From assembly GCA_051294375.1 (NCBI GenBank), contig CM119266.1, forward strand, positions 27,229,596 to 27,293,595: DNA of 64,000 nucleotides, in the 5' to 3' direction. The stretch is from Paraspadella gotoi. Taxonomy: Eukaryota > Animalia > Chaetognatha. Below, piece by piece: positions 5,258 through 63,726 of this stretch (position 1 is its first letter; every line of letters starts with the position of its first letter). The translations under genes and the position numbers were made by a program. The notes beneath the pieces were generated by a model, which was not told the DNA's origin, did no database searches, and saw only the letters and a list, made by a program, of their open reading frames with translations.

Positions 5258-5550
5258 TCTGTGGTGGTATATTCACACCACCTCACGTCCACGATCGTTC
5301 AGCCTATACCATTGGCTCAGAGGGGGAACACACCATCCTAGGCTTTATGTTCCATCCAGTCCTAACAAATTCCCTCTTCGTTGGCAAAGCAAGACCTCCT
5401 AGGGTAACCGCACCAGTGACTGGATGCGTCACTGATTGTCGGAAGCCCCCAAAGCCAACAGTGAGATGTCCCCAATGGGCAACACAGGCAACCCGGATGT
5501 TACCATTCTCCCTCTATTTCCCGAAGACAACACTAACATCCCGCTCCCAA
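5258..5550 (+). mobile_element. Family-A short interspersed element with degenerate type-P5 twister (5380-5459)
   Basis: Homologous to 46198-46425 (minus) and 42770-42890 (minus). GTTGGC...GACC-TCCTAGGG-TAA-CCGC-ACC-AGTGAC..GTCACT-G-ATTG-TCGGAAGC-CCCC-AAA-GCCAAC carries mutations in P4 and both pseudoknots. Confidence 0.8.
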
Positions 5551-16845: not shown

Positions 16846-16978
16846 GCAGGGACCTGCTATGTCATTATCTTGTAAGAGTGATGGAGGCCTTAAACCACCA
16901 AAGCCTGTCCAAAGTCAGGGGCAAGATAGCTTATTTATTAAATGAATGGATAATTTTTATATTGGTTGTACCAATTTC

Positions 16979-17041: not shown

Positions 17042-17042
<1 letters not shown>

Positions 17043-18111
17043 TAAAATAATAATAATTTAATTTAATTGAATATCTATATTCATATCTAGTGAGCTGCTG
17101 AGCAAAAAATTAATTCAACGTAATTTCTCTGTTTATAAATGTAATCGTATTTTCCTTCATCGACGATATGTTGATAATCGCAAAGTCATCGTTCCTCCTC
17201 GTCGCATTTAATCAGCGACGCTTCTTCACCTACGAAATTTATAATATGAAATTTAAATCTAATCGGTAACATCTCTTTATATATTCATATTCATATATTA
17301 ATTAATTTAAAAATTTTCTTTGTTAACAGAGGTTTAAAACATAAATGTAATTATAAACTAAACTTTTTAATATAAAACAATTTAAAAATATAATAAAACA
17401 AGTAATCATGTAACTTTCACAATACATAGACTCATAGTCATAGTGTTTCAGTCAATAATTGTCCTCTGCCAACCACCCCCCCCCCCACTTTCAGTCTTGC
17501 ACCCCGATTCCGCATCTCACCCCCGCCACCCAACTTCCTGCCCCCGTTGTGTTTCCCTTCATTATTGTCGCGGTCGTCGGCCTCTTCTTCGTCTTTGTCT
17601 TCGTCGTCGTCGTCGTCGTTGTCGTCGTCGTCTTCATGGAGGTCACCGCCCGATAAAATATACGTCCGGAGATTATATTGCGTCAGACTTTAGATAATAT
17701 GGCTCGAATCAATTTATAATTTTTTTATATTATTAAGGACGTCGTAGTCCAAAAAAAAAAGAATTTTACAACCAAAATAAACTGCCTGAGATGTCAAAAA
17801 TATCTTAGGACTGGCGACAACAACAAGACCCAAAAAGACGACATCCTCTCCCACGACCTCTGTGCTCCTTCCCTCCCCGGAATCTCGTCATTCGACGTCC
17901 ATGATGAAAATCCGCAGACAAAAGGCGTCTCAACCGAACTCCGTCGCCGGATTAAGTATCTCGATAAAAAGTTTCCGGCGGAAAATGAAACGGGAGATGA
18001 ATTTGGGATCCGAACGGAAAGAGAATGAAGAATGAATTGGGATGAACGATAGAATGGAAACGAATGGAGAATTGGTGAATGAGTGAATTGATTAAGTAAA
18101 TGATGTAATGA

Positions 18112-18327
18112 TAAGTGTTAATGACAGAACCGTTCAATATATAAGCAGTTCCTGAGCTTCGGATCAGGTTGTAACACCTAGTTACAGGCGGGTTAAGCGC
18201 CCCGTCCCTCTTAACTGCTCGGCGGCCACCGGGCTAGAACCCCGGATCTTGGGGTTGGGAGGCGAATGACTTGCCTCCGGCACCAATGGCCGCTGATGGA
18301 GTGTTGGTGGATTTTAGTCCACCATAG
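18112..18327 (-). mobile_element. Family-B element: hairpin + tRNA-Gly-like module (18222-18293) + type-P5 twister (18145-18218)
   Basis: Minus strand TGGTGGACTAAAATCCACCA...GCGGCCA-TTGGTGCCGGAGG...CTCCCAA...CCGGGGTTCTAGCCCGG-TGGCCGC-CGA-GCAGTTAAGAGGGACGGGGCGCTTAACCCGCC...TCCGAAGCTCAGG...TGAACGGTT. Confidence 0.85.
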
Positions 18328-19939: not shown

Positions 19940-20053
19940 ACTGAAAGCTTGAAGAGGCCTTAACATAAACACAGGCCGTCTAAAGTCAAGTGGAAGCTAA
20001 TAGCTAATTTATTGTATGAATAGATAAATTTTTTTTGGTACCACTTTCATATT
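19940..20053 (+). mobile_element. Diverged/deleted family-D-like element (duplicate at ~26190-26305)
   Basis: GAGGCCTTAA...TCTAAAGTCAAG and a tail ATGAATAGATAAATTTTTTTTGGTACCACTTTCATA resemble family D, but the core is disrupted. Confidence 0.55.
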
Positions 20054-20388
20054 CCACTTGGAGCAGCATCCAACTGGTCTTTTCCTTTTCCTCCTTCGCC
20101 TCCAATTCTGTTTTGCGGCGGCAACCAACTGATGGCATCGATTGATGGCACCGTTTCCGCCACCAACTATTTCCCTTTGAATTAGAGACGAGGAACGGAC
20201 AATAAAGATTCGGCCCCGCGGTCGGTTCGGAAGAAAAGGGGGGAGAGTTGGGGGGAGGCGGAGGAGGGATAAGAGGGAAGGGGAAAGGAAATGGTTAGAG
20301 AGAAGACTAGAGTAGAGTAGAAAAGAAAGTCGAGAACCTTTTAAAGGGACCTAGGAAGTCGAGAGTCATTCCTAGAAATAGAATAGTA

Positions 20389-21000
20389 CTATCTAGGAAA
20401 AAAGTTAGAGACATTTTTTTTTAAAAGTTCATTTATTCAATAAAAAATATACAAAACATGGGTAAACATTCTCAATATTTGGTATGCCCTCCCTCGGCAT
20501 CGACCACTGCCTGCATTCGTCTGGGCATGCTCTCGTAAAGCGAATTTGAGGTACGAAGGTGAAATGTTTTTTCCACACCTTTAGCGCAATTTTTTTCAGC
20601 CCCGATGTTGATGTTCCAAGTCTATTGCTGATGATTGTTGCGTCTTTCCCTCTTTTCTCAGAGCTACAATTGCACCTTATGAACCAAAGAGAGGGGCTGT
20701 CTATTCGGCATAACCAAATTTAAAAAATGAAAAAAATAATTAACTCAATTTGAAATAAAACAAATAACTCAATACCAAGATTGTGGAAAACTAAGGCGAT
20801 TTTTTCCGCCATTTTTCACTTGAGGTAGCAATCTTATTTTGCCTCTAACTTCTATACGGTTGGATCTACGAAAAAATGGAAAGGGAGCACTGAAATGAAA
20901 TTTAGTGTAGAATCTGAAACATCCTGATTTTTTATAAAATCGAGCAAGTTTTCGAGTAGATATCCTCAATTAAAATGTTTCTAACTTTTTTCCTAGATAG
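20389..21000 (-). mobile_element. Non-autonomous Tc1/mariner internal-deletion derivative
   Basis: TIRs CTATCTAGGAAAAAAGTTAGA(G/A)ACATTTT with TA on both sides. The minus strand encodes the Tc1 transposase C-terminus LYESMPRRMQAVVDAEGGHTKY* joined to an N-terminal MPNRQPLS...AIVALRKEGKT fragment. Confidence 0.9.
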
Positions 21001-21941
21001 TAGAATAGCGAGAAATGCCGTTTTGCAAGGAGTCAGATTGCAGTTAAAGTTAAAAAATCAGAAGTCGTAAATTAATATGGATATCTAGCTTTTGAACCCC
21101 GTCACTATCCTATGATATACATATCTATGATAAATATCTTTTGCTAAAAGTTTTGTTAGCCAAAATATAAATCGTTTGCCCCGCACTGTATTCTTTTTTA
21201 TAGGCGTAATCAGTAAATAAAGATTCGTCTGATCTTTTATCATTAAACTGAAACCTCAAGACGCGCCTCCACCGATTAATTTTTAACCCGACCCACAGCT
21301 CCTTCCACACCATGCCCCCCACACCCCCTCCACACCCCAACGTCATCGCCCACGATTCCTCTTGTCCTCGCGAGATCAAAAGGTGAAATGGAGATAAATG
21401 AAATTTGGCTCAATCATTATCGGGATTTATTCTCTCGCCCACTCTTCATCAAAAAAAAAGAAGAGAGGGAGAGAGAGGAGAGAGAGAGAGAGAGAGGGAG
21501 AGGGGTTAAGTCGAGTGTGGCATTTTTGATTTTTAAATATCATAGTTTGTGATGAGGGATTAAAATACTTTACCTATTTCATGTAAATAAATTAAAAAAT
21601 TAAAGATATTAAATCATTGGTTGAGGAATAAAAAACGTTGCGCGGAGATGAACAGTCATTTTATTAAAAAAGTATCTGGGTTGAAAAAGAAAATTCCGGG
21701 CAGAATCTAGCAACGATTTATTTAATAGAAGCAATAAAACCCGGAGCATGAAATTCGCAGTTCGGTTTAAGCGAGAATCCTTTTTTCAGAGCGCAGTTCT
21801 GTGGCCTTTTTAATTGTGGCTTTTGTTTTTCTTTTTCTTTAAANNNNNNNNNNNNNNNNNNNNNNNNNATGAAGAGATCAGGGGCAAGAGAGCTTATTTA
21901 TTAAATGAATGGATAATTTTTTATTTGGTTGTACCAATTTC

Positions 21942-21972
<31 letters not shown>

Positions 21973-21978
21973 TATATA

Positions 21979-22016
<38 letters not shown>

Positions 22017-23096
22017 TAATTAAATAATATAATTTAATTTAATTGAAAATATCTATATTCATATCTAGTGAGCTGCTGAGCAAAAAATTATTCAAACGTA
22101 ATTTCTCTGTTTATAAAGTAATGCGTATTTTCCTTCATCGACGATATGTTGATAATCGCAAAAAGTCATCGTTCCTCCTCGTCGGCATTTAATCAGCGAC
22201 GCTTCTTCACCTACGAAATTTATAATATGAAATTTAAAATCTAATCGGTAACATCTTCTTATATAATTCATATTCATATTATTAATTAATTTAATTTTCT
22301 TTGTTAACGGAGGTTTAAAAACATAAATGTAATTATAAACTAAACTTTTAATAATAAAACAATTTAAAAATAATAATAAAAAAACAAAGTAATCATGTAA
22401 CTTTCACATACAATAGACTCATAGTCATTAAGTGTTTCAGTCAATAATTGTCTCTGCCACCCCCCCCCCCCACTTTCAGTCTTGCACCCCGATTCCGCAT
22501 CTCCACCCCCGCCACCCCAACTTCCTGCCCCCGTTGTGTTTCCCTTCATTATTGTCCGCGGTCGTCGGCCTCTTCTTCGTCTTTGGTCTTCGCGTGCGTC
22601 GTCGTCGTTGTCGTCGTCGTCTTCATGGAGGTCACCGCCCGATAAAATATACGTCCGGAGATTATATTTGCGTCAGACTTTAGATAATATGGCTCGAATC
22701 AATTTATAATTTTTTTATATTATTAAGGACGTCGTAGTCCAAAAAAAAAGATTTTACAACCAAAATAAACTGCCTGAGTAATGTCATATCTAGGACTGCG
22801 ACAACAACAAGACCCAAAAAGACGACATCCTTCTCCCACGACCTCTGTTGCTCCTTCCCTCCCCGGAATCTCGTCATTCGACGTCCATGATGAAAATCCG
22901 CAGACAAAAGGCGTCTCAACCGAACTCCGGTCGCCGGATTAAGTATCGTATAAAAAGTTTCCGGCGGAAAAATGAAACGGGAGATGAATTGGGATCCGAA
23001 CGGAAAGAGAATGAAGAATGAATTGGATGAACGATAGAATGGAAACGAATGGAGAATTGGTGAATGAGTGAATTGATTAAGTAAATGATGTAATGA

Positions 23097-23313
23097 TAAG
23101 TGTTAATGACAGAACCGTTCAATATATAAGCAGTTCCTGAGCTTCGGATCAGGTTGTAAACACCTAGTTACAGGCGGGTTAAGCGCCCCGTCCCTCTTAA
23201 CTGCTCGGCGGCCACCGGGCTAGAACCCGGATCTTGGGGTTGGGAGGCGAGATGACTTGCCTCCGGCACCAATGGCCGCTGATGGAGTGTTTGGTGGATT
23301 TTAGTCCACCATA
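23097..23313 (-). mobile_element. Family-B tRNA-like/twister element (duplicate of 18112-18327)
   Basis: Near-identical copy inside the duplicated segment. Confidence 0.85.
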
Positions 23314-23559
23314 GTATTAAAAAATTATTTTAATTAATTAAAAAAAAAAACTGAAAATACAGTCAAGTAAAGACGAATAAATTTTACAAAAAAGCCAGTG
23401 AGGAAAAAAGTGTAATGACTTTTGCATGTAATTAATATCGATGAATTTTTAAATAAAAAAAGATTCAATATATGTCGAGAAATAACTCATGAGAAAAAAA
23501 TACAGTACTAATCGTAATGTGTTTTGAATAAAAAGTAGAGAAATGACTTAGAGATTTAA

Positions 23560-24858
23560 GGTCGGGATCACTCAATTCAATTATAATTTAGGCTAAAACC
23601 AAGCATCGGATTTCGAAAGGAGAGCTCCCTGACGATTCCGAAAAATGTATTCACTTTACTATTTTTTTCAAAGCGTCATCGTTTTTTCGATTTTTTTTGT
23701 ACTATATAAAATAAAAAAACCTATTTGAAGAGTTTGCAGATCAAACGGTAAGGCGGTTTCTCATGAAATTTGGCATGAATTATCTTTAGTCACGGGACTC
23801 CAATTCTATGAAAGATCTTTCAAAATTTGCCTTCCTTCATATGAAAATTTATTATTTAGTCAATTTTTGGATTAATTCCTTGATATCTTTGAACGAAAAA
23901 AAGTTTTCCAAAAAAAGCGCTCATAGAATCTTCCCACCTTTCCTTTCTTGCCCAGATATTTTTTTTCTTCAAGAAGAGTCCCAGTTGAGCTGCAACTCTC
24001 TTCGTTTTTAACTTCTCTTCGTCAAGAAAGTTAAATTCTGTACTCATACTCTGCAAGATTCACCACAACATACACAAACAGGATGTGATGATGGGTTGTT
24101 CAACGCGATTCTTAAAAAAAAACGGCTTACGTTTTTAAATTCTTATCCAGTTTTTTGTGGACTAAACGCCACAACCGTTCTCAGCGCCATTGTGCTGGAG
24201 GCAAGTCATTCCTCAACCCAAATCGGTTCTAGCCCGGTGTGTACTGGCATTAGAGGACGGCGCTAACGCGCTGTAACATGGATGTTAAGCCTGATCTCGA
24301 AGTCAGGGACTGCTTACATTGAACGTTCTATCACTAACCATAAAATAATTACTGTCTTTCAGTTTGATTTTTTTTTTTCAGCAAGATTCCCTAGAAGAAA
24401 TAGGGCAACTATAAACATTTACATAAAGTAAAAAGTCAAATGAAATAAATTGGATAAGTTTTTAACCTCATTAAAACTCATAAAAGCATAAAAACCCGTC
24501 TGGAAAAATGTGTAGATAGTTATTTTAAGACTTATTAGTGATACAACTCCAAGTACGGTTACTTGCACAAAAGAAAATTGAAATATAAGAAGTAGAAATT
24601 GGAGCTTGCTGTAAAGAATCAGTTTTTAAGTTAAAAATTTGGTTGTAAAAATTTACCTTACATTTTAAAAAATATTTTTCTCTTGAAAATCTAGTTTTTG
24701 CCGAAGAAAAGAATTTGTTTAAATTTTTATGAACATTTTAGGTAGATTTTTAAAAGTTTTCAAAGATTTTTAATAGAAAACCTCTTATGGGACGCGAGAA
24801 ATGAATTAATATACATTAAATTGAGATTTCTACAATTTTAGGTTGAGTGATCCTGGCC
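23560..24858. mobile_element. 1.3-kb non-autonomous TTAA-targeting DNA transposon (Kolobok-like termini)
   Basis: TTAA|GGTCGGGATCACTCAA ... TTGAGTGATCCTGGCC|TTA. The empty site GATTTAAGGAA is visible in the other copy at ~18561. Termini are purine GG rather than the piggyBac CCC. Confidence 0.75.
24155..24340 (+). mobile_element. Degenerate family-B element nested in the TTAA transposon
   Basis: GTGGACTAAAC...AACCGTTCTCAGCGCCATTGTGCTGGAGGCAAGTCATT...GAGGACGGCGCTAACGCGCTGTAAC...GAAGTCAGGGACTGC...TTGAACGTT. Confidence 0.75.
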
Positions 24859-26640
24859 TTAGGAATTGAGAATTTTTTTTGTTCGTGACGGCTTTCATTT
24901 TAAATTTTCTGTGGCCGAGATCAGGAAAAGCGATTTGCCCCTGTCTTCGATTTTCACTAATCGGCATTAAACTGAAAGTCGCTCCTCGTTTGTCGTCTTT
25001 GGTCGTCTTCATCCTCATTCTCGTTAGTCCGTCGGTGTCAGATAATGGAGAGCGGCTGCGTCTTCGTAAACGTCGTCTTATCGTCGTCATCTATCGTCGT
25101 CGCTGACCTTTAAAAGAATATTTTATCATCACTCGGAAAGACGTTCCTGTCGTCGTTGTCGTTTGTCGCCGAAGTTGTACTTGTGGTTATCATTTTTAAT
25201 TATCTTCGTCGTCGTTGTCGTCATCGTCATCGTCCGCCGTAATTGCATACTGCATACGTGTGACCTTCCTTTGGAGGAGACTCGTTTACTTGGAATTGAT
25301 GGCTCCTTCTTTTGGGCTGTTTCTAAAGAAAAGAAAAGAAAAGAAAAGAAAAGAAAAAAGAAAGGAAAAGAAAAGAAAGAAAAGAAAGAAAAGAAAAGAA
25401 AGAAAGGAAGAGAAGAGCAGAGCAGAGCGGAAAGAGCTTTGACTTGAGTAGAAAAATTACAAAGTGCAGAGCCTTTAATATATTATTATTAATATAGAAA
25501 TTAAATAAGTTTCAACTATAACTACTACGGCATTGTATATAAGCAGAGGATCTGCAACGAAAACGTAAAAAGTTCGTCGAAAATTTTTCCACGCTCCTGA
25601 AAATCGGACAATTCTGAGTTCCTACTTTACGGCGACTCTCGGCTCCACGCCTACAAATGCTCGTCGTTTTCAGTTGTAAAAAGGATTTGATGACAATGGT
25701 CGATTCGTCTTTGTCGTTTTATTACCGTCACAAATGTCGTTTTCTCCTCAGCCTTGTCATTCTTTTTTCCTATATTGAGTCACCTAACTTATTTTCTCAT
25801 TAAACCATTAGAGAGGAATTAGTAGAATTAAAGTAATGTCTTAAAATTTAGTTAAACTAGTTATGAGTAATTTAAACTTTCGTACAAATGAATCTCCGAG
25901 AAAAGATTCATTATATTAAATATAAGATATAGTTGCTTTTGTTATTTTACTTAAATCTTTCTTCTTTTTTATTTCTTTTCCTTCTTTTCTTCCGCCATCT
26001 TTTTCTCTTGAAAAAAGGTTCTTTCGGTCGATGCACTGCGACGAATAAATGCATTCTTTGGATTATATTTATTTTTCTGTCTTGTATCAAATTTCTGAAT
26101 TCAGATAAAGGAGTCAATACTTAATACAAATGCTGTTTTAGTTTAATTTCATGAAAGGTACTATACAACTTTATTCAATGTCAGAGAAGTATTGATGAAG
26201 CTTGAAGAGGCCTTAACATAAACACAGGCCGTCTAAAGTCAAGTGGAAGCTAATAGCTAATTTATTGTATGAATAGATAAATTTTTTTTGGTACCACTTT
26301 CATATTCCACTTGGAGCAGCATCCAACTGGTCTTTTCCTTTTCCTCCTTCGCCTCCAATTCTGTTTTGCGCGGCAACCAACTGATGGCATCCGATTGATG
26401 GCACGTTTCCGCCACCAACTATTTCCCTTTGAATTAGAGACGAGGAACGGACAATAAAGATTCGGCCCCGCGGTCGGTTCGGAAGAAAAGGGGGGAGAGT
26501 TGGGGGAGGCGGAGGAGGGATAAGAGGGAAGGGGAAAGGAAATGGTTAGAGAGAAGACTAGAGTAGAGTAGAAAAGAAAGTCGAGAACCTTTTTAAAGGG
26601 ACCTAGGAAGTCGAGAGTCATTCCTAGAAATAGAATAGTA

Positions 26641-27246
26641 CTATCTAGGAAAAAAGTTAGAGACATTTTTTTTTAAAAGTTCATTTATTCAATAAAAAAT
26701 ATACAAAACATGGGTAAACATTCTCAATATTTGGTATGCCCTCCCTCGCCATCGACCACTGCCTGCATTCGTCTGGGCATGCTCTCGTAAAGCGAATTGA
26801 GGTACAAGGTGAAATGTTTTTCCACACTTTAGCGCAATTTCTTTTCAGCCCCGATGTTGATGTTCCAAGTCTATTGCTGATGAATGTGTGCGTCTTTCCT
26901 CTTTTCTCAGAGCTACAATTGCACCTTATGACCAAGAGAGGGGCTGTCTATTCGGCATAACCAAATTTAAAAAATGAAAAAATAATTAACTCAATTTGAA
27001 ATAAAACAAATACTCAATACCAGAATTGTGGAAAACTAAAAGGCGATTTTTTCCGCCATTTTTCACTTGAGGTACAATTCTTATTTTGCCTCTAATTCTA
27101 TAGTTGGTCTAACGAAAAAAATGGAAAGGGAGCAACTGAAATAAGAATATGTAGAAATCTGAAACATCCTGATTTTTTATAAAATCGAGCAAGTTTTCGA
27201 GTAGATATCCTCAATTAAAAATGTTTCTAACTTTTTTCCTAGATAG
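26641..27246 (-). mobile_element. Tc1/mariner deletion derivative (duplicate of 20389-21000)
   Basis: Same TIRs, TA flanks and transposase C-terminal remnant. Confidence 0.88.
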
Positions 27247-27920
27247 TAGAATAGCGAGAAATGCCGTTTTGCAAGGAGTCAGATTGCAGTTAAAGTTAAA
27301 AAATCAGAAGTCGTAAATTAATATGGATATCTAGCTTTTGAACCCCCGTCACTATCCTATGATATACATATCTATGATAAATATCTTTTGCTAAAAGTTT
27401 TGTTAGCCAAAAATATAAATCGTTTGCCCCGCACTGTATTCTTTTTTATAGGCGTAATCAGTAAATAAAGATTCGTCTGATCTTTTATTCATTAAACTGA
27501 AACCTCAAGACGCGCCTCCCACCGATTAATTTTTAACCCGACCCACACGTCCTTCCACACCATGCCCCCACACCCCCTCCACACCCCAACGTCATCGCCC
27601 ACGATTCCTCTTGTCCTCGCGAGATCAAAAGGTGAAATGGAGATAAATGAAATTTGGCTCAATCATTATCGGGATTTATTCTCTCGCCCACCTCTTCATC
27701 AAAAAAAAGAAAGAGAGGGAGAGAGAGGGAGAGAGAGAGAGAGAGAGGGAGAGGGGGTTAAGTCGAGTGTGGCATTTTTGATTTTTAAATATCATAGTTT
27801 TGTGATGAGGATTAAAATACTTTACCTATTTCATGTAAATAAATTAAAAAATTAAAGATATTAAATCATTGGAAAAAGTTTAAATTGTGATTCGGCAACG
27901 AATTTATTTAATAATAATAA

Positions 27921-39814: not shown

Positions 39815-40391
39815 CTCTTGTCATTTATCGATCTTTTTTGTGGCACCGAAACGCATTTTTCTCTTCCTATCTTTTTTTCCCTTCTCCCTTCCTTTCACTT
39901 CCTCTTTCACCCTCTCTCTTTCCTCTCTCCTCTTTCTCCTTCTCCCATCATTTCTATCCTCTGATTCTTTTTAAACCAATCGATGCACAAAGTAACATTT
40001 ATATTCAACAATATTTCTATTTAAATATTCCCTCTTAGTCTCATCTTTCTCCTACTCCTCCTCCACCCCCCTCCCTCCCTCCCTCCGCCAACACTTTCCA
40101 CCCCGAGTTTTTGAGGAGAACTCCGTCTCAATTATTGGGTCATAGTTTGGGTCACATCTCGGGTCAACGCTCGTCGGCCCGCGATCGGTTTTTGGGGCAA
40201 ATCTATTTACACGTCTCAGTCATCGTCGTCATCGTCGTCGTCGTCGTCTTTCTTTCTGTTTCTCTTTTCTTAAGTCTTTCATCCGATACTCGTCGTCGTT
40301 GTCGTTGTTGTCGTCGTCGTCGTCGTCCTCGTTGATATGCAATTTTATACATATACTGTTATATATATATAGCAGGGACCTGCTATGTCAT

Positions 40392-40454
40392 TATCTTGTA
40401 AGAGTGATGGAGGCCTTAAACCACCAAAGCCTGTCCAAAGTCAGGGGCAAGATA
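40392..40454 (+). ncRNA. Twister ribozyme type P5 (family D), in element 40372-40512 flanked by (TA)n; predicted cleavage 40417/40418
   Basis: Identical to 16866-16928. Confidence 0.8.
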
Positions 40455-40972
40455 GCTTATTTATTAAATGAATGGATAATTTTTATATTGGTTGTACCAA
40501 TTTCATATATATATCTCACATGAAACTTATGGTTTCTGCTTTTCTTTCGATTTTTTTTACCACTTGGTGGCAGTTATTGTTTTGTAATTTGTTTACCTTT
40601 CGCTGTTTTTAATTTTTATTTTTAAAATTTAGTTTTCTAAGCGTGTCATATTTTGAACTATTCGTCTTCGTCATCGTAGTAACTTTCTCGATCATGACGC
40701 CTAATGGCCGACGACATGGTTGCCGTCGTCGTCGTCGTCGTCATATATTCGTCCTCTTCATCTTCATCTTCGTTGTCGTCGTCGTCATGATCGTCGTCAT
40801 ATTCGCCAGTCTTCGATATGATCAAAGTTCGTGATCCATCAGCCTCTCCATTTCTCTTTCCATTTCGCGGCGCCGATCTTCTCTTCAGTTTTTCTCCTCG
40901 CATACAAAATTAATTATGTACAATATTAAACATTGTGAAGAGACATTAATTATTGTTATGTGTTCAATATAA

Positions 40973-41046
40973 GCAGTCCCTGAGCTTCGGATCAGGCTGT
41001 AACACCGTGTTACAGGCGGGTTAAGCGCCCCGTCCCTCTTAACTGC
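40973..41046 (-). ncRNA. Twister ribozyme type P5 (family B, cleanest copy); predicted cleavage 41023/41022
   Basis: GCAGTT-AAGA-GG-GA-CGG-GGCGCT-T^AA-CC-C-GC-C-TGTAAC-ACGGT-GTTACA-G-CCTGA-TCCGAAGC-TCAGG-GACTGC. All stems pair, as do both pseudoknots (CGG/CCG, GC/GC). Confidence 0.85.
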
Positions 41047-42471
41047 TAGGCGGCCCACTATGATCGAAGTGAACGTTAGAATCGGAAAAATTATACAATG
41101 GCATATTCAGATAGCTTAACCAGAGTAATTCTTAAAAACTTTAGAGGTTCTTCTCATAAAATATTAATATTTCCAAAAAGGACAAAAATGTAACATTTTA
41201 TTTTTTTACGATTCCTAAAGATGACCCGAACGCTACAATATTTTTTTTTAGCTTGTTTTAATTTTTTTCCCTCTCAAATACGGTAAAACAAAAGTTTAAA
41301 GAGCAATTTGATCCAATCAGTTAAGCGAGGAAGTTAATAGTGCTAACGTGTTTTTAGCTACTAATTTTTGAAAAGGATAGAGGAATCAAAATAGAGATTG
41401 AGTAAAATTATTAATTAAAGTTTACAAGATGTTTTTTTTTTGGCATTTTTGTTCTTTTAAAGAAAATGTTTGTTAGGTTCAATCCATTTATTAAATTTAA
41501 GACATCAAAAAGTTTAACTAGATTTAATGTAAAAATAACGATTTTTTTCACAGACTGCTTAATAAATCCAAAAATGTTTTCAGCTTGATATTAAACAACT
41601 GAAAACATTTTTGGATTTATCATTTTTCATATTTATAGAAGATTCTTACAGAGAATTTCGCCTCACTGTGATCGTCAAATAAGAATTTCCCAAAAGTCTA
41701 AACGTTTATTCTCGGTAACTGACGTGGCAAATATGAGACAAATGTAATAAATATTTTATCTTAAATGATTTTGAAATTTCAAATGTCAAATTTCTAATCA
41801 ATATTTTTACACAATCAATTCTTTGAAGTCCAATATTCATGATTACTTATATTTTTTTCCTCTCTCTCTGTCTCTCTCTGTCTCTGTTCCTTTATTATAC
41901 CAAATTTACAATTATTTTATTTAAAAAAAAATTACTTACGTCTTTGTCATGAAGACAATTTAGTTATCTTAACCACTTCAAAATAATTTACTTAGTAAAT
42001 AGTATCGAAGTGTTAGAAAAAAAATATATGAAAATCATTTTGACATTTACTCATTTTGCGGATCGTTGCGGATGAAATCCGGAACACATCAAGTGCGTTA
42101 TAATATTAATCATTATATTTAATAAGAATGGTAGTGATTCCCCATGATTCCCTAAATATTCTAAGCTAGTTTTCAAAAACTCAGATACAGTAAAACCTTT
42201 TTAGAACAAATTTGTATTTTATCCATACTAGGTATCCAGTTGTTTATCAAGATTTTAAAAAAAAGTAAATTCATCATAAAGTTCCTGGAATATAGCTCGA
42301 CAAAGTGAGTCTGAAATAGAGAAAAGCCTTATATCTCCTAAAGAAATGATTTTTGACAACTGATATTGCTTGAGAGGTTTCCGATGATAGTCACTAATTA
42401 ATTAAAAGCATATATATTTTTGTACGATGAACTAACCTTATTCCGATAAAAAAAATTATTTTGATGATAGT

Positions 42472-42890
42472 GCGGCCACCGGGTTAGAACCCCGGACCTT
42501 TGGGTTGGAAGGCGAATGACTTTCCTCCGGCACCAATGGCCGCTGATGAACGGTTGGTGGATTTTAGTCCACCATACATCCCCCCTACCGTAGGGAGAAG
42601 TCTGTTGCTTCTCTTCAGTGAATTGTTGTTGTTGGTGGAAAGTGCGTCACCAAGTTGATGCATGTCGCCTGATGTGTTGTTGGCGGAAAGTGCATCGCCA
42701 GGTTGAGGCATGTTGCCTGAAAGTGTTGTTTTTGCTGTTGTGTTTGGAAGTCGACTTGTGTTTGGAAGAGACTATGGCAACAGCCGGGTTGCCTGTGATG
42801 CCCCTTTGGGATGGGGCATCTCACTGTTGGCTTTGGGGGCTTCCGACTCTCAGTGACACCTCCAGTCACTGGCGCGGTTACCCTAGGACG
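42472..42890 (-). mobile_element. Composite element: family-A twister (5'-truncated) + spacer + family-B hairpin and tRNA-like module
   Basis: The minus strand runs continuously from GTCCTAGGGTAACCGCGCCAGTGAC...TCGGAAGCCCCCAAAGCCAAC through a CAA-rich spacer into TGGTGGACTAAAATCCACCA and GCGGCCA...TGGCCGC. Confidence 0.85.
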
Positions 42891-43049
42891 CTTTACAGGG
42901 ATGCTCTAACGATATTTATAATATTTTTTGAAAGGTTTTATTATTTATATTACAGAACTCTTAATTTTTACCTTGTTCCGTAAAGATTGAGCGATGGAAC
43001 AATATTTTTTGCTGCCTTTGTATATGTAATAAAAAATAATTAAGCTATT

Positions 43050-43505
43050 TTTCAAAAAAAATTTGTATAACAGTATCATTAATTGAATTTTCTTTATAGT
43101 AATATCCTTATAAAATCATAAAATTTTTAAATCATATTTTTTTAATTTTAAGAACAGTTTCGGATTCGCCGGAAAAAACTGAAAAACTTTTGTAAGATAT
43201 GTTACATGATATTTTTATGTTAAAGTTGCGAAAAATGATCAAAATGTTTCATCATATAATAGTTTTTACTACAAAGTGTGAAAAAGTGGAGAATTTGACC
43301 TTTTTTTGCATTTTTGATGCTGAAGACATTAAAATTTTTAATAACATATTGTATATTTTTGATATAACTTTTTATGAAGAATCAGAATCTTTAATAAAAA
43401 TTTAAAAAAAATTATTTTGAAAATTTATGATTTTATAAGGATATTACTATAAATATATTGTAATTAATGATATTGTTCCCCAACAATATAAGCAAAATTT
43501 TTTTT
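43050..43505. mobile_element. MITE-like element with inverted repeats
   Basis: TATAGTAATATCCTTATAAAATCATAAA (~43095) versus TTTATGATTTTATAAGGATATTACTATA (~43424). Confidence 0.6.
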
Positions 43506-43625
43506 GTACTCCTTAATTATACTATGTTTGTTCACTCAAATAAAATTTATGTTCCCCAGTGCTCAACTCTATTACTCATCATAGCCTGACGAAAGTCAGC
43601 TGCAAGTTAGCTCGTTTATTGAATG

Positions 43626-43865
43626 AACGCACTTTCCACCAACAACAACAATTCACTGAAGAGAAGCAACAGACTTCTCCCTACGGTAGGGGGGGATGTA
43701 TGGTGGACTTAAATCCACCAACCGTTCATCAGCGGCCATTGGTGCCGGAGGCAAGTCATTCGCCTCCCAACCCAAAGGTCCGGGTTTCTAACCCGGTGGT
43801 CGCCTAGCAGTTAAGAGGGACAGTGCTCAGGGACTGTTTATATTGAACGGTTCTGTCACTAATAC
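43626..43865 (+). mobile_element. Family-B element with spacer tail, tRNA-like module and internally deleted twister
   Basis: ACGCACTTTCCACCAACAACAACAATTCACTGAAGAGAAGC... matches the spacer of 42472-42890. It continues into the tRNA-like module, GCAGTTAAGAGGGAC|AGTGCTCAGGGACTG (core deleted) and TTGAACGGTTCTGTCA. Confidence 0.85.
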
Positions 43866-43904
<39 letters not shown>

Positions 43905-43906
<2 letters not shown>

Positions 43907-44510
43907 AACAAACATTAGGAATACCAATTGGACTAGATTCTGGTCAAATATTGCCAATATGTTGTTATTTTATTTTGAATCAACATATATGGAAAATATG
44001 TCAAAAAATATCTAGGAATCACTAGACAATTTAAAAATTTCAAGATATATTGATGACCTTTTTTCGGCAGATTTTAAGGATTTTAAAACACATCTTGATA
44101 AAATATCCAGCAGCACTTACTGTCAATAAATCTAATAGTATAGACACAAATGTAGATTATTTAGACATTAACATCAAATCAGAAAACAAAAATCTTACTC
44201 TTTCTGTATATGATAAAAGGGATTCCTTTTCTTTTGAGGTAGTGAACTACCCATTTATGGACAGTTGTATTCCTAGAAAAGCAGCATTAGGTGTATTTAT
44301 TAGCCAATTAATTAGGTATGCCAGAATATGTTCAACATTTATAGATTTTTCATCGAGAGCAATAAATATTAAGCAAAAAATTACAAAGTCAGGGTTATAT
44401 ATTTAAGGACTTAAGAAAAATGGGAATTAAATTTTTTAATAATTATAAGGAAATACTAAAAAATATAATTTTACTGATGTTAATCTATTTTTTTAAAAAG
44501 ACTATACATG
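43905..44510 (+). pseudogene. Decayed Penelope-like element reverse transcriptase, C-terminal part (Naiad/Chlamys-like signature)
   Basis: QTLGIPIG (RT motif B), SRYIDDLF (YIDD at 44046-44057), then after a frameshift DYLDINI...VYDKRDSFSFEVVNYPFMDSCIP...GVFISQLIRYARICS. Frameshifts and stops are present. Confidence 0.85.
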
Positions 44511-46221
44511 ATAGTTCCTAGTAAAAATATTAAATAATAACAAAATTAAACCACTTAAAATAATAATAATAATAATAATAATCATCAACATACTATTTAT
44601 TTAACTTATTTAACTTATTTAACTCTTTGATGTAACTTATTTTTTAAATTATACTAATTAACTTTATGTTAACTTTACATTAACATTCCCTTGATTATTA
44701 AAATATTATTTAACTAATTTTTTAACTTATTTAATTATTTACAAAGTACAAATTATTGCAAAACCTTAATAAATTTCCCTAAAATTAATAATGCTGTGAT
44801 ACCAGGGCTTTGGTCTGTGTAAGATAAACATTAAAAATATATCCTTAAAAAATAGGATAAGCAACAATGAAGGATCACCATTTGGTGATGGCTCGCCTAT
44901 ACCTGGATATTGGGATTAAAGAGCCGAAATCCATGAAGGGTATAGGTTCAAAACTGATGACCTTCCCATTGTATAAACATAATAGATAAAAGATATTCAG
45001 AAATAGAATAATTAAAAATTAGGATAAAGGAAAAAATTATTTTCATTAAAGTATTTTAAAATTATATCATGACATAAAGGTGCCCCTATAGACCTTTCCC
45101 AGTATGTATCCCTATCAGAACATACAATTCTACTTTGTAGTCTTATCCCTATTAGTTTTTTAAAAAAATCATATATAACTTTGGTCCCCCATCAAAAAAT
45201 TATCCATTCCCACCCCTTTCTGTTCAGCCTATTAGATATTATGATTTTTCATTAATGACTTTCTAACAGGAATGATGTGTGATATCTATTAGAAAACTAG
45301 GACAGATTGTAATCTAACCTTGTGTTGTGTAGATGCTCCCTCTATTTCCAGAAGACAACACTGACTTCCCATTCCCAAAATGAGTTATTAGATATAATGA
45401 TAAGTAAAAAATTTTAAGAAAGCAATATATATATATTTAAAGAATATAGATTAAATGGTAAATCTTTCATAAAATATAAAAATAAAAAATAAAAAATAGT
45501 GAAACAAGTAATTTGAAAATTTTCATATCAATAATTACTGTCTCATCAAATGGATAATTTGTAATTTGTACTATTAGTATATATTAGAATAAGTTATTCT
45601 ATAATACTCCGAACAAGGCTGAAATTTTTTTGTTACATGATATAAAACGCTAGCATGAAGAAAAAGTTAGTTTTGTGGTATGACGAGGAAATGATATTTG
45701 TACTAGAATTATGGAGGGAGAATTTTTCAGGTTGAGTCGAGGAATGAAATAATCTGGATCCGATGAGTGAGAAAGAGCAAAAAAAGGTAATATTTACTAA
45801 TTGTCGAAGTCCGGAAAAGAACGACTTTCAGATACATTGAAATAAAATATTGTAAAGTGGTAAAGCGGGGTTTTCAAGAGAAGGGGAATGCAAAGAAAAT
45901 AATCCCAAAAGGTAGGCAATGAGAAAGGAGGTGGATTAAAAGAGAAGAAAAAGGGAGCAGCGCCTCTCGCGGATGTCCTCGTCATTATCATAATGGGAAA
46001 AGAAAACATATGAACACGAGTCCGAGGGAAAAAAGGGAAATCCGTTGAGGGCAGGGAGAAAAGGGAGGAAGAAGAAAATTCCTGAAAAAGATATGATGGG
46101 AGAAAAGAAAATAATGGAGGAAAAAAAAATCGCTCGCTGCGATCGGGGAAAGTGAAAAGGAAATTGCAGAATGAGGAAGAAATGTGTAAGTTATAAGGCC
46201 CATTGGGTTGGGCATCTCACT

Positions 46222-46302
46222 GTTGGCTTTGGGGGCTTCCGACCCTCAGTGACGCATCCAGTCACTGGCGGGGTTACCCTAGGACGGTCTCGCTCTGCCA
46301 AC
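46222..46302 (-). ncRNA. Twister ribozyme type P5 (family A), in element 46198-46425; predicted cleavage 46276/46275
   Basis: GTTGGC-AGA-GCGA-GA-CCG-TCCTAGGG-T^AA-CCCC-GC-C-AGTGAC-TGGATGC-GTCACT-G-AGGG-TCGGAAGC-CCCC-AAA-GCCAAC. Pseudoknots CCG/CGG and GC/GC pair; P2 is partly mismatched in this copy (CCGC in the other two). Confidence 0.75.
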
Positions 46303-47240
46303 GCAAAGGGAAGTCGTTAGGACTGGATGGAACACAACGCCTGGGATGGTGTGTTCCCCCTATGAGTCACTGGTATTGGCCGAAAGATCGTGGACGTGAG
46401 GTCGTGTGAATATACCACCACAAAGTAAATGAAGGTCGGGGCAGTGAGGAAAGGAGAAAATGCATTAATGCAATCGGTGAAATAGTTTTTTTAGGAAAAC
46501 CAAAGGAGAGGACAAAAAGGGAGGAAGATATGATCAAATGTCGTGGGGTTGGACTCGTTGTGAGAAAGTGATTAATTGAGGTGATACCGTTGGACTCACG
46601 ATAAATACTGTTGTGTTTCTTTTTAAAAAAATAATATTTCGAAGATAAAAAAGTGATAAAAAAATGAAGAATAACTTAAGGCTCCGGTAGGACGTTGGAA
46701 GCTGTTCGATAAAGTATTTTTTCAGACATACATTTGTCAAAGATGGAAGTGAATGGATAGAATTATATATATATATATAATATATTTATTATATGATATG
46801 TATAAAATTGTATATTGTATAATATCTAATTAATATATTATTCATCAACCGATTTGACATCTCAGTTGGTCGGAGAGCGTTTGTCTATTTTTAAGTGTCT
46901 GGAAACCCAGGACGCCCTTTTTAATTTTTCTTAACTAATTATTTTTTTATTTAATTTACTACGTATAATTGCGGCCGCTCCGACGCCGCAGCGGCTCAAA
47001 ATGTAACTCGCGAATAACGAGCGAAATAAAGAAAAAACTGAAGAATGAAGAAAGAAGTAAACCGTAGAGAGGAAGAAAAAGGGAAGAAAGAAATAATGAT
47101 TTACGTGGGACGCGCGAGCGCGCGAAAATCTGAATGCGAAATCTCATGAATTATGATTGAATAAAATAACAAAAGGAAGACGAGGCGATGAATTATTCAT
47201 CCGCCCAGATGACAGCAACGACAAAATAAACAGTCCGGGG

Positions 47241-47478: not shown

Positions 47479-47680
47479 TTATGGTGGACTAAAATCCACC
47501 AACCGTTCATCAGCGCCATTGGTGCTGGAGGCAAGTCATTCGCCTCCAACCCAAAGGTCCGGGGTTCTAACCCGTGGCCGCCTAGCAGTTAAGAGGGACG
47601 GGGCGTTAACCCGCTGTAACATGGTGTTACAGCCTGATCCGAAGCTCAGGACTGCTTATAGGTTCTGTCATTAACACATA
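47479..47680 (+). mobile_element. Family-B tRNA-like/twister element (1-nt deletions, possibly read errors)
   Basis: TATGGTGGACTAAAATCCACCAACCGTTCATCAGCG...GCAGTTAAGAGGGACGGGGCGTTAACCCGCTGTAACATGGTGTTACAGCCTGATCCGAAGCTCAGGACTGC. Confidence 0.85.
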
Positions 47681-48369
47681 TCAATAATTACTGTCGCTTC
47701 AATATTTTAGTATTAACTATTAATAGTTGTTCACTCTAGTTTAATTTGGTCAAATATTTGAATTTATAGCAGTCACACCAGTGTGACATCAGGGTAACAA
47801 AAGCGTGGAATCAAATGTCAGCTGCATGTCTAAGATTTCAACAACAAAGGGCGAGGTCTTAACCTCGAGGAAAAACGTTACTATTTCTTTTTCGGCTCAA
47901 ACGCGATGATAATGAATAATTAGGAAAATTTAAATGGATATAAATATGAACAATAAGATATAAATGGCCAAAACTACGACTAGGAGTGTTTATTTTCTTA
48001 TTGAGTTATTCTTTTGCGAGTTGTGATCGAATACAAATGAAGAGAAAGAGAAAGAGAGATAAATCGTTTGGGTTTCGCGACCCCCGATTGTTTTCTCCTT
48101 GTCGCGAAGATCTGTCGAGACGTCGACCTTACTGCCTCTGTCGCTCTCTGTCTTTCTTTTTTTTCCCCCCTTCTTTTCTTTTCTTTATTTTCCCCCCTCT
48201 CTCTCTCTCTCCCCCATCGACCCCAAGAAAAGCTTGATCCCGCACGACCCTTGAAAACAGATTCGGACAATCATCCTTTGCATATTTTACACTCAACGTT
48301 CATTCAGTCTCACCATAACTTACCTATCTCTCTCTCTCTCTCTCTCTCGTAGGCAAATTACGGATCAAA

Positions 48370-60931: not shown

Positions 60932-63497
60932 CCTATCTTTTTTCACATTCTGATGAAGGATTTGATATCAAACAAGCCAGGGGAAATGCACTCCTCATCT
61001 TCAGAGAATTTTCAAACCTCATTTTATACTATAGAAATGAACGGGAAAGGTTTAAAAACTAAAAATTGCAACGGGATTTGCTATATGTTCCTGTTACATG
61101 AGCGACTTTGAATTTCGCGATTCTGATAGCTTTGTGTCTGAAGGCTTTGTCTATTTTTTCCTTTTTTTCATTTTATAATGATTTTGACATAAAAATGATT
61201 CAGGTTTAAATGAAATAGTCCGATTTGAATTGCGAAATTTTTATTTAAAAAGAAATTAAAAGGAAAGGTTGAGAAAAAACTTGATTTTTCCTAATTCTTT
61301 TGAAGGAATAAAGATAAGGGATGGCAATAGTACCAAAATGAAGCCATAATCATAGGGCACATACAAGATACAACTTTAGATTACTTATGCTCTGAAACGC
61401 CTCCTTACAGGTGATGTGTCAAACTAGGTCAAATTATATGAATTTAAAAACTAATGAACCCCATAAAATAAATGAAAAATTTAAATTCTTTTTTAATGAT
61501 TCTGAAAGAAAATAAGGCTAATTGTACTCTAGTAAAACTTTAAAGTTATTTGTATAAAAAAAAAAATGTGAATTTTTGTCACTTTGTCTGATTTTACAGA
61601 GCTGCTTACAAATTCTACAAATATTATTACTTTACCCCATCACAGCCAAGTATTTATCCTTCTTTTCCACAGCATAAAGTAAACATTATCTTATTGAAGA
61701 GAACAGGGATGTTTACTGAAAGGAGCCGGAAGACATTCAACTTCTTCACTTTGATGTTATTATTTTCAATAATAAAATAAGCGAATTTTTTAATTATTTA
61801 ATTCCACAGGTTCATAAGATATTACACTCTTTCATAACTCCAATGTTAATGTAATTTATTATATTTTTTACCCAGAAAAATCATAAGAAATAACACAGAA
61901 AGTTGTGGATCCCTTCGCTCGTTTAAGAAAAAAAAAATAACTAAGCGGAATTATAAGTTTGTAAGAGGAATCAGAATTGGCGAAAATCTTTAAAGGCGAG
62001 AATGTTGAAAAAGGGAGAGGAGAATTTTGGTTTTTTTGGTCGATTTTCTTCTAAACCCATGGGCCAATTTAGACGTAACTTAAGATTAACATTATTCCAG
62101 TCATTTCTCTATCCAAAACTATAAATATATTATTGAAAAAAGTTTGGATCGACTATAGGAATTTGTGTTCTCTTTAATGTTTTTTAAAAAAAACATAAAG
62201 CAATNNNNNNNNNNNNNNNNNNNNNNNNNCCTATTCATTTTTTCACATTTGATGAAGGATTTGATATCAAACAAGCCAGGGGAAATGCACTCCTCATCTT
62301 CAGAGAATTTTCAAACCTCATTTTACTCTATAGAAATGAACGGGGAAGTTTAAAACTAAAATTGCAACGGGATTTGCTATATGTTCTGTTACATGAGCGA
62401 CTTTGAATTTCGCGATTCTGATAGCTTTGTGTCTGAAGAGCTTTGTCCTATTTTTTTTTTTTTCATTTTATAATGATTTTTGAAATAAAAATGATCAGGT
62501 TTAAATGAAATAGTCCGATTTGAATTGCGAAATTTTTATTTTAAAGAAATTAAAAGGAAGGTTGAAGAAAAAACTGTATTTCCTAATATCTTTTGAAGGA
62601 ATAAAGATTACGGATTGCAATAGTACAAAATGAAGCCTAAATCATAGGGCACATACAAGATACAACTGTTAGATTACTTATGCCTGAAACCCTCCTTACA
62701 GGGTGAGTGTTCAAACTAGGTCAAATTATAATGAATTTTAAAACTAATGAACCCCCATAAGAATAAATGAAAATTATATTCTTTTTTAATGATTCTGAAA
62801 GAAAATAAGGCTAATTGTACTCTAGTAAAACTTTAAAGTTATTTGTATAAAAAAATGTGAATTGTTTTTGTCACTTTGTCTGATTTTACAAGCATGCTTA
62901 CAAAATTCTACAAAATATTATTTACCCCATTACAGCCAAAGTATTTATCCTTCTTTTCCACCAGCATTTAGTAAACATTATCTTATTGAAGAGAACAGGG
63001 ATGTTTACTGAAAGGAGCCGGAAGAATTCAACTTCTTCACTTTGATGTTATTTTTTCAATTAATAAATAGCGAATTTTTATATTAATTTAATTCTCACAG
63101 GGTCATAAGATATTACACTCTTTCATATAGCCCAATGTTAATGTAATTTATTTATATTTTTTACCCGAGAAAACATTAAATATAACCAGAAAGTTGTGGA
63201 TTCCCTTCGCTCGTTTAAGAAAAAAAAAATTAATAGCGGAATTATAAGTTTGTAAGAGGAAGTCAGAATTGGCGAAAATCTTTAAAGGCGAGAATGTTGA
63301 AAAAGGGAGAGGAATTTTTGTTGTTTTTTGGTCGATTCTCTTCTAAACCCATCAGTGGCCAATTTAGACGTAACTTAAGATTTACCTTATTCAGTCATTT
63401 CTCTATCCAAAACTTATAATATATATTATTGAAAAAAGGTTTGGATCGACTATAGGAATTTGGTTCTATCTTTATGTTTTTTTAAAAAAAACAATAA
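60932..63497. repeat. ~1.27-kb tandem duplication across a 25-N gap (60932-62204 vs 62230-63497), likely assembly artefact
   Basis: Collinear copies differing by scattered indels on either side of the gap. Confidence 0.85.
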
Positions 63498-63726
63498 AAA
63501 AAAAAACAACTTCGAAAATACGAAGTTCTAACTGAAAACAATTGCCGTGTGTGTTAGTTTTTTCCGTATCGTTTGTTGCTTTTGTGCCAAAGTTAGCCAT
63601 TCTTTCTCGTCTCTCGTCTGCTCTCCTCTCGTCTCTTCTCTCTCTCTTGCTCCTATCTCCTTTCTCTCTATCTCTCTTCTCTCAGCTGCTCGTCGTCCTC
63701 CGTTTTCATTCGATCTCTCTCGTGTT

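What the first reader, a model, noticed from the sequence alone, without database searches (positions are those of the whole stretch)
42472..43865. Composite twisterA-spacer-tRNA-twisterB element: a possible natural circular-RNA generator
Seen: 42890-42472 (minus) links twister A through a spacer to the tRNA-like module. Segment 43626-43865 (plus) links the same spacer end and tRNA module to a twister-B remnant, and other copies give the intact tRNA-twister B junction. No single copy here is complete. Inference: the full element has two different twisters in the same sense, cutting out ~435 nt (408 nt from 42879 to 42472 plus 27 nt to the B site) with 5'-OH and 2',3'-cyclic phosphate ends, which are established RtcB substrates. 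On ligation the junction would be a B/A hybrid whose L1-L4 pseudoknot is CGG against CGG and whose P5 is mismatched, so the circle should not re-cleave. This differs from retrozymes with identical terminal hammerheads and resembles engineered two-twister circularisation cassettes.
Basis: inference. Interest (0 to 1): 0.85.

Follow-up and report, generated by a model that had tools for sequence, protein, structure and literature searches.

The report
Mini LTR retrotransposon carrying twister ribozymes
The flagged stretch is two broken, locally duplicated pieces of a very abundant ~650-base jumping element whose terminal repeats each hold a tRNA-like module followed by a predicted self-cutting twister RNA, so intact copies would likely release a ~420-base RNA that closes into a circle between two identical ribozymes, not between two different ones as first proposed.

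Summary
In public DNA runs the 'spacer' is normally preceded by the 3' end of the tRNA/twister-B unit plus a tRNA primer-binding site, and it ends in a polypurine tract before the next tRNA/twister-B unit. So B is the ~233-nt LTR of a high-copy non-coding mini LTR retrotransposon (Helenus-like TRIM) with a ~187-nt internal region. The twister-A/spacer join has summed depth hundreds of times below both flanks in two of three runs; A is a second, mostly solo, LTR family. Both ribozymes at this locus are broken, and the two half-copies share private alleles. What remains is interesting: a type-P5 twister fold in each LTR, 27 nt after a tRNA-like module. That predicts an LTR-retrozyme cycle (double cut, ~420-nt monomer, RtcB ligation), so far described with hammerheads and mainly in plants. 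I did not find a twister-bearing LTR element in 8 paper searches. Cleavage, transcription and circles are untested; no single full-length copy was seen.

The parts
42773..42890 (-). 3' ~118 nt of LTR family A (5'-truncated). Holds a dead twister-A remnant: predicted cut 42880/42879, P3 42871-42851, L4 42846-42839, P5 3' strand 42831-42826; 5' half of the ribozyme missing
   Evidence: loose ends at 42890 in 4 of 4 runs show the missing 5' half exists in other copies; heterogeneous flanks at 42771-42773
42765..42772 (-). last 8 nt of a B-family 5' LTR, left between A and the internal region
   Evidence: same letters and same 11-nt distance to 42753 as in the loose-end consensus of X1 and X9
42754..42764 (-). 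11 nt that stand where the primer-binding site lies in other copies; a local copy of downstream sequence (13-nt direct repeat 42738-42750 / 42756-42768)
   Evidence: D8; depth trough at 42752-42769
42577..42753 (-). internal region of the B element (the 'spacer'): non-coding, 48-nt duplication 42627-42720, polypurine tract 42586-42577; high-copy
42472..42576 (-). 5' 105 nt of the B 3' LTR: terminal hairpin, then tRNA-like module 42543-42472 with B box at 42491-42482; truncated before the twister
43627..43698 (+). 3' 72 nt of the same internal region, inverted local duplicate of 42647-42577
   Evidence: (I1, I3); shared minority letter at 42587/43687
43699..43869 (+). B LTR with tRNA-like module 43732-43803 and a twister with a 43-nt deletion (between 43821 and 43825) that removes the cut site, P2, P3 and most of L4; 3' end lost at an (AT)n tract
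47480..47701 (+). near-complete solo B LTR (TA...CA), twister 47584-47656, predicted cut after 47607; flanks ACAT / ATAT
40936..41055 (-). 3' half of a B LTR with an intact-looking type-P5 twister 41047-40972, predicted cut after 41023
18105..18326 (-). B LTR (duplicated at 23313-23090 within a larger duplication); folds into hairpin + tRNA-like + twister modules, z = -4.08
5258..5505 (+). solo LTR of family A with a 4-6-bp target duplication (one mismatch); empty site of the same flank at about 45333
46198..46422 (-). family A LTR, 3'-truncated, best-preserved twister A in the window (P2 weakened)

Best explanation
The locus holds two decayed pieces of a high-copy non-coding mini LTR retrotransposon whose LTR carries a tRNA-like module followed by a predicted type-P5 twister ribozyme, with a fragment of a second LTR family (A) likely inserted into one of them; intact copies would likely work as retrozymes. 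Shown: order LTR-end > TGG primer-binding site > ~187-nt internal region > polypurine tract > LTR start, many solo LTRs, twister fold 27 nt after the tRNA module. Inferred: RNA polymerase III starts at the tRNA module of the 5' LTR and reads through (no run of 4 T in the internal region or the three LTR copies checked); both twisters cut, leaving a ~420-nt monomer with 5'-OH and 2',3'-cyclic phosphate and no terminal redundancy; RtcB closes it; a Gypsy-type reverse transcriptase primed by tRNA-Trp copies round the circle and so rebuilds LTRs, solo LTRs and multimers. The flagged copies themselves would make no circle.
For: Loose ends at 42753 (X1 6 contigs, agreement 0.98; X9 3 contigs, 0.97) and at 42730 (X5 2 contigs) read as LTR end + T + TGG primer-binding site; the 20-nt LTR-end part matches 4 B tails in the window, 0.02 expected. 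The PBS matches the honeybee tRNA-Trp 3' end shown for Gypsy-32_NVi and Helenus-2_SyJa at 12 of 13 positions (supplement Fig. S2). Contigs bridge polypurine tract and LTR start with 31+ letters each side (X5 record 18 and X9 record 29; X9 record 17). B starts and A ends carry heterogeneous AT-rich flanks in all runs laid. A solo A copy has a target duplication and an empty site. Twister core, both pseudoknots and P5 are present in 4 B copies (3 loci), with compensatory pseudoknot changes among families B, A, A' and C. Natural twisters tolerate bulges and mismatches in P1, P2 and P4 but not in pseudoknots or catalytic bases (PMC11662667, passages). The plant model with no R region and a circular template: PMC4918200 passages; RtcB ligation of animal retrozyme monomers: PMC7229834 passages.
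Against: No single sequence with both LTRs was seen: runs are short contigs and no genome is held, so LTR-internal-LTR is read from overlapping adjacencies. Rfam gives no hit to twister B even in E-value mode and only 16.1 bits, E = 5, to A. Box A of B departs from the TRGCY consensus and my A-box pattern missed it; ARAGORN calls no tRNA. Target duplications of B copies are imperfect (3 of 4 at 47480; uncertain boundary at 24157; other copies truncated). A natively ligated junction would rebuild a whole twister, so a circle must refold or be re-cut. Depth figures are sums over contigs, not copy numbers. The host's own tRNA-Trp is not available.
Confidence: 0.7

Rival explanations
1. Same element, but linear cycle: Pol III starts at the tRNA module, only the 3' twister cuts (as a terminator substitute), the 5' one is kinetically silenced, and the ~99 nt between tRNA start and cut site serve as the R region of ordinary LTR reverse transcription.
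For: Most Helenus LTRs I read show a T-run just after the tRNA (supplement parts 1, 5-9), while B has a twister there and no run of 4 T. Cassandra uses a short Pol III-defined redundancy (PMC10886601).
Against: Both LTRs would carry the same ribozyme, and a natural LTR folds into separate hairpin, tRNA and twister modules with nothing masking the ribozyme.
Confidence: 0.15
2. One reading: a family of elements with twister A at the 5' end and twister B at the 3' end yields a ~435-nt circle whose hybrid junction cannot re-cut.
For: The join exists once in the window. A few single-copy-depth contigs link an A end to a B start across unknown sequence (42576>42773: 4 contigs X1, 3 X2, 2 X5). At 55915-54830 a noisy tandem ends in a family-A start after an A'-type internal region. 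The pseudoknot logic of a B/A hybrid is correct on paper (for B, loose end for A).
Against: Depth trough at the join (X1 397-517, X5 264-1344, X9 19-321, against 28,000-301,000 in A); no listed contig bridges it (most records are not displayed); a B-LTR end lies between A and the spacer; both ribozymes are broken here; B occurs about once per 9 kb in this window, so some A-near-B contigs are expected by chance.
Confidence: 0.05
3. B is a tRNA-headed SINE or a tandem non-LTR retrozyme mobilised by Penelope-like elements, and the PBS/PPT look is chance.
For: A Penelope-like RT remnant abuts the 43k copy; animal retrozymes are tied to Penelope-like elements (bioRxiv 10.64898/2026.07.22.740005, passages).
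Against: 33 nt of conserved sequence precede the tRNA module; both ends are fixed (TA...CA); CA + T + TGG with a 12/13 tRNA-Trp match and a purine tract sit at the LTR-typical places; animal non-LTR retrozymes lack PBS and PPT. The RT remnant sits in an (AT)n tract that cuts off the B tail.
Confidence: 0.07
4. The twister folds are inactive relics of an old capture; the TRIM spreads by ordinary means.
For: Below Rfam thresholds; P1 is only 1-2 bp and P2 has a bulge.
Against: Catalytic G and A and both pseudoknots are kept in families with different stems; P1 is reported dispensable.
Confidence: 0.03

Closest known systems
Helenus TRIMs (TRIMp3; Kojima 2024, PMC10886601; main text parts 1-4 of 6 and supplement parts 1, 5-9 of 11 read), above all Helenus-2_SyJa / Helenus-2_SyUm of gall wasps
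   Same: Short non-coding LTR element, tRNA-like module in the LTR, PBS and PPT, many solo LTRs; Helenus-2_SyJa has the same T + tRNA-Trp PBS type and a similar LTR start; some wasp Helenus LTRs also begin with TA.
   Different: No ribozyme is mentioned for Helenus in the main text. Here a type-P5 twister follows the tRNA. By eye the two Synergus LTRs hold a type III hammerhead at the same place, which I could not run through a tool.
Plant LTR retrozymes (Cervera et al. 2016, PMC4918200; passages read)
   Same: Ribozyme in each LTR, PBS and PPT around a non-coding centre, solo LTRs, predicted monomer without R region that must circularise.
   Different: Twister instead of type III hammerhead; tRNA-Trp-type instead of tRNA-Met PBS; tRNA-derived promoter module; monomer ~420 nt against ~700 nt; host not a known retrozyme plant (likely an animal, not shown).
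Animal non-LTR retrozymes and Schistosoma tRNA-hammerhead repeats (PMC7229834, PMC4918200, PMC6765202; passages read)
   Same: Small ribozyme repeats giving 170-400-nt circles through RtcB; the schistosome repeat joins a tRNA to a ribozyme.
   Different: They use type I hammerheads, lie in tandem arrays and lack LTR, PBS and PPT.
Twister variants of Schistosoma non-LTR retrotransposons (PMC8501958; abstract start and passages read)
   Same: Twister used to process a retroelement RNA.
   Different: Described for non-LTR elements; the word 'circular' does not occur in its main text.
Tornado circular-RNA expression cassette (described in bioRxiv 10.1101/2023.07.11.548538, passages read)
   Same: Twister-type cuts at both ends followed by RtcB ligation.
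   Different: Engineered; that its two ribozymes differ is recalled, not read here. The natural element has identical terminal ribozymes.

Membership tests
Helenus-type TRIM | two LTRs around a non-coding internal region, total under ~1.3 kb | tested here: inconclusive
   Both junctions shown separately in runs of 3 studies; LTR 233 + internal 187, total ~653 nt; no Pfam hit in 5 frames of the finding region; no single full copy seen
Helenus-type TRIM | PBS complementary to a tRNA 3' end just after the 5' LTR | tested here: met
   Loose ends in X1, X5, X9; 12 of 13 to the tRNA-Trp PBS of supplement Fig. S2; host tRNA not available
Helenus-type TRIM | polypurine tract before the 3' LTR | tested here: met
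   42586-42577; the majority letter at 42587 extends the purine run
Helenus-type TRIM | tRNA-like sequence in the LTR with boxes A and B | tested here: inconclusive
   7-bp acceptor, anticodon-like arm and T arm fold; GGTTC box B present; box A departs from TRGCY; ARAGORN and Rfam negative
Helenus-type TRIM | 4-bp (animal) or 5-bp target site duplication | tested here: inconclusive
   B47 3 of 4; B24 plausible with uncertain boundary; A5 4-6 bp with one mismatch plus empty site; other copies truncated
Helenus-type TRIM | transcription by RNA polymerase III | not testable with these tools
   no RNA holder listed
LTR retrozyme | self-cleaving ribozyme motif in each LTR | tested here: met
   twister descriptor hit in 4 B copies; motif only, activity untested
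LTR retrozyme | the ribozyme is a type III hammerhead and the PBS is tRNA-Met | tested here: not met
   type-P5 twister fold, tRNA-Trp-type PBS; works like a retrozyme, not filed as a member
LTR retrozyme | monomeric circular RNA accumulates | not testable with these tools
   only contigs of DNA-type runs available
Type-P5 twister ribozyme | P5-closed permutation, GA + pseudoknot partner, U/AA site, P2, two pseudoknots, P4 | tested here: met
   4 B copies, 1 A' copy, 2 C copies; 3 hits in 60 shuffles; not met by the two copies inside the finding nor by 3 A copies
Type-P5 twister ribozyme | Rfam RF02684 gathering score | tested here: not met
   best 25.8 bits (family C) against 37.6; B has no hit
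Type-P5 twister ribozyme | self-cleavage | not testable with these tools
   bench assay needed

The most novel reading that the evidence does not exclude
This genome carries thousands of Pol III-driven LTR retrozymes built on twister ribozymes, in at least two or three families, that spread through ~420-nt circular RNAs: an LTR retrozyme without a hammerhead and outside plants. Together with an unremarked hammerhead in published gall-wasp Helenus LTRs, it defines a wider class of tRNA-promoter TRIMs that swap ribozyme classes at one position in the LTR; rare LTR swaps between families could give two-twister units whose circles cannot re-cut.
Probability: 0.45. Interest if true: 0.8.

Novelty: new variant of a known kind. 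Interest (0 to 1): 0.6.

Why it matters
It would join two lines that the papers I read keep apart: TRIMs with tRNA-derived promoters (no ribozyme noted) and LTR retrozymes (hammerhead, mainly plants). It would give eukaryotic type-P5 twisters a concrete role, making unit-length templates for reverse transcription, and would show that circle-forming retroelements can exchange ribozyme classes. It is cheap to test: one in vitro cleavage assay and one RNase R northern.

Tried and rejected
Whole-genome search: no genome is held for this window. Collection scans: spacer-LTR junction motif 0 hits in metagenome contigs; twister-B motif 0 hits in viral contigs; an 18-nt P4-L4 motif gave 29 metagenome loci, 0 of 29 with the upstream twister half or longer similarity, so chance. 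No RNA holder listed; run X9 is only guessed to be RNA and shows the same repeat profile as the DNA runs, so it was treated as DNA; nothing here bears on expression. Spacer as the end of a protein gene: no Pfam hit, longest ATG frame 45 codons. Spacer as a private flank that was duplicated locally: rejected, it is high-copy in all runs. A PBS-motif search of the window gave 1 hit with 2 mismatches at 55172-55160, 0.34 expected, so not significant alone. MAFFT could not align twisters across families, so covariation was read from the descriptor parse instead of a pair count. Four twister L4 motifs gave 0 hits in the Helenus supplement (exact short motifs, line breaks can hide matches; fungal parts 2-4 and parts 10-11 not read whole). 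The original twister paper (Roth et al. 2014) is not held; the twister consensus I used is recalled, apart from the Rfam consensus line. Earlier scan findings: none by sequence, place or TRIM words. Paper searches that found no twister-bearing LTR element: (listings; selected papers read as passages); subscription journals, Repbase reports and bioRxiv supplements were out of reach and may hold such a description.

Full report
Setting. The window is repeat-rich eukaryotic DNA with three 25-N gaps. No genome is held, so genome-wide evidence comes from contigs of public runs of the same coded organism: nine runs of three studies were listed, four were laid on 42200-44100 and three on 42545-42812. 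The host is likely an animal, but this is inference: a Penelope-like RT remnant has 49 relatives, many of ~915 aa with GIY-YIG, and the only one with a species name is from a bivalve.

Observation. The segments and cut-site arithmetic are as reported. A type-P5 twister descriptor finds 7 motifs in the window (4 B, 1 A', 2 C) and 3 in 60 shuffles; it was written after I had seen the sequences. Stems differ among families while the catalytic GA, the U/AA site and both pseudoknots are kept, with compensatory changes. Rfam is much weaker: nothing at gathering level, 25.8 bits for family C, 16.1 bits for A, nothing for B or for the flagged region. Neither ribozyme in the finding is intact. Twister A starts at 42890 and lacks everything upstream of P1, including the catalytic G and the pseudoknot partner, which natural twisters do not tolerate (PMC11662667, passages). 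Twister B at 43806-43839 has lost 43 nt including the cut site.

The two half-copies are one event. They are identical across 60 nt of spacer, and at 42587 and 42609 both carry letters that 98.8-100% of the summed depth in X1, X5 and X9 does not (43687). They lie inverted about 1 kb apart around another inverted repeat. They cannot be combined as independent witnesses of a composite.

What the spacer is. It is high-copy: summed depth 104,000-268,000 in X1 over 42581-42733, falling to 84,000 and 13,000 in the next two bins, and to 517 and 397 over 42752-42769, before rising to 175,000-301,000 in A (X5 1344 and 264, X9 321 and 19 in the trough). These sums are not copy numbers, but the trough is two to three orders of magnitude. 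Contigs that leave the window at 42753 (6 in X1, 3 in X9) or 42730 (2 in X5) agree at 0.97-0.98 and read, in the element's sense, as the 3' end of the B unit, CA, one T and a TGG-starting primer-binding site. The 20-nt B part matches four B tails in the window, 0.02 expected. The PBS agrees at 12 of 13 positions with the tRNA-Trp PBS that Kojima lists for a wasp Gypsy and for Helenus-2_SyJa. At its other end the spacer closes with a purine tract directly before the B start, and contigs bridge this join (X5 record 18, X9 record 29; X9 record 17). Most other contigs at the B start (42576-42577) and at the A end (42771-42773) go on into unrelated AT-rich flanks with agreement 0.42-0.6. So B is an LTR of about 233 nt, TA...CA, the spacer is an internal region of about 187 nt, and the whole is about 653 nt. 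A is a second LTR family: the copy at 5258-5505 has a 4-6-bp duplication with one mismatch and an empty site near 45333, plus A- and B-box matches. In the flagged copy the last 8 nt of a B LTR remain between A and the internal region, and the PBS is replaced by an 11-nt local copy: the picture of A inserted into, or recombined with, the 5' LTR of a B element, followed by deletions.

Results against this reading. No single full-length copy was seen. B target duplications are imperfect. Box A is atypical and ARAGORN finds no tRNA, although a natural LTR folds into hairpin, tRNA-like and twister modules with z = -4.08, 0 of 200 shuffles as stable. A few low-depth contigs link an A end to a B start across unknown sequence (4 in X1, 3 in X2, 2 in X5 for the commonest join); with B present at 7 loci in 64 kb some are expected by chance, but I could not read them. 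Most contig records are not displayed, so the absence of a listed contig across the A/spacer join is not proof.

Mechanism. Shown: the anatomy. Inferred: Pol III initiation at the tRNA module (no run of 4 T in the internal region or in three LTR copies), cleavage 27 nt after the module in both LTRs, a ~420-nt monomer without R region, ligation by RtcB, and copying by a Gypsy-type RT. This is the model published for plant LTR retrozymes, where the circle replaces the missing redundancy and yields solo, full and multimeric copies (PMC4918200, passages); RtcB ligates animal retrozyme monomers in vitro (PMC7229834, passages). The main rival is a linear cycle in which only the 3' twister cuts.

Comparison and novelty. 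The element fits Helenus in layout (PMC10886601), whose main text mentions no ribozyme. Reading the supplement by eye, fish, bivalve, nemertean and most wasp Helenus LTRs end soon after the tRNA, but the two Synergus Helenus-2 LTRs, which share the tRNA-Trp PBS, show a type III hammerhead about 23 nt after the tRNA with a 12-nt loop-loop complement; I could not run these sequences through a tool. A 2026 preprint still describes LTR retrozymes as type III hammerhead elements found primarily in plants. Seven topical paper searches found no twister-bearing LTR element (an eighth, concerned Tornado). I rate it a new variant of known kinds: it works like an LTR retrozyme and is built like a Helenus TRIM, but fails the hammerhead and tRNA-Met features of the former, and activity is untested.

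Verdict. Observation partly confirmed; two-different-twister model not supported (0.05); twister-bearing TRIM with a likely circular intermediate best supported (0.7); interest 0.6.

Noticed in passing
window 16865-16929 + and 40391-40455 + (remnants 4844, 19954, 21878, 26207, 43577-43627): A third type-P5 twister family (C), the only one with an Rfam Twister-P5 hit (25.8 bits), in a 138-nt unit that ends in (TA)n or (ATA)n tracts; likely the tail of a Naiad-type Penelope-like element (label recalled). A C-like remnant abuts the 43k spacer piece.
   Followed up: partly
window 43910-44500 +: Frameshifted 3' part of a Penelope-like reverse transcriptase inserted in an (AT)n tract that cuts off the B LTR; relatives of ~915 aa carry GIY-YIG.
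   Followed up: partly
window 55915-54830 -: Noisy tandem A' LTR / ~205 nt / A' LTR / ~205 nt / 5' half of an A LTR. A' has its own P5 twister (cut after 55280) and a PBS-like motif after each copy; a second case of two LTR families around one internal region, but the A piece stops before its cut site.
   Followed up: partly
PMC10886601 supplement DataS1, Helenus-2_SyJa-LTR and Helenus-2_SyUm-LTR: By eye, a complete type III hammerhead follows the tRNA module; not mentioned in the paper's main text.
   Followed up: partly
window 42472: The flagged B LTR stops exactly at the last base of the tRNA-like acceptor stem; one case only, may be chance or a processed RNA end.
   Followed up: no
window 42904-43500: AT-rich high-copy repeat with 109-nt inverted arms (43069-43177 / 43369-43477), MITE-like, between the two half-copies.
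   Followed up: no
window 16915-18569 / 21878-23561; 18567-21620 / 24861-27872; 60938-62199 / 62238-63498: Long 91-95% duplications, two beside 25-N gaps; may be assembly redundancy, so B copies at 18326 and 23313 count as one locus.
   Followed up: no
window 45529-45548 +: Isolated B-LTR tail remnant.
   Followed up: no
window 8800-14870: 6-kb purine-rich satellite of 70-90-nt units ending in a long inverted repeat (14880-15064).
   Followed up: no
window 44800-44970 +: Downstream of the RT remnant, a stretch with hammerhead-like core motifs by eye; not tested.
   Followed up: no
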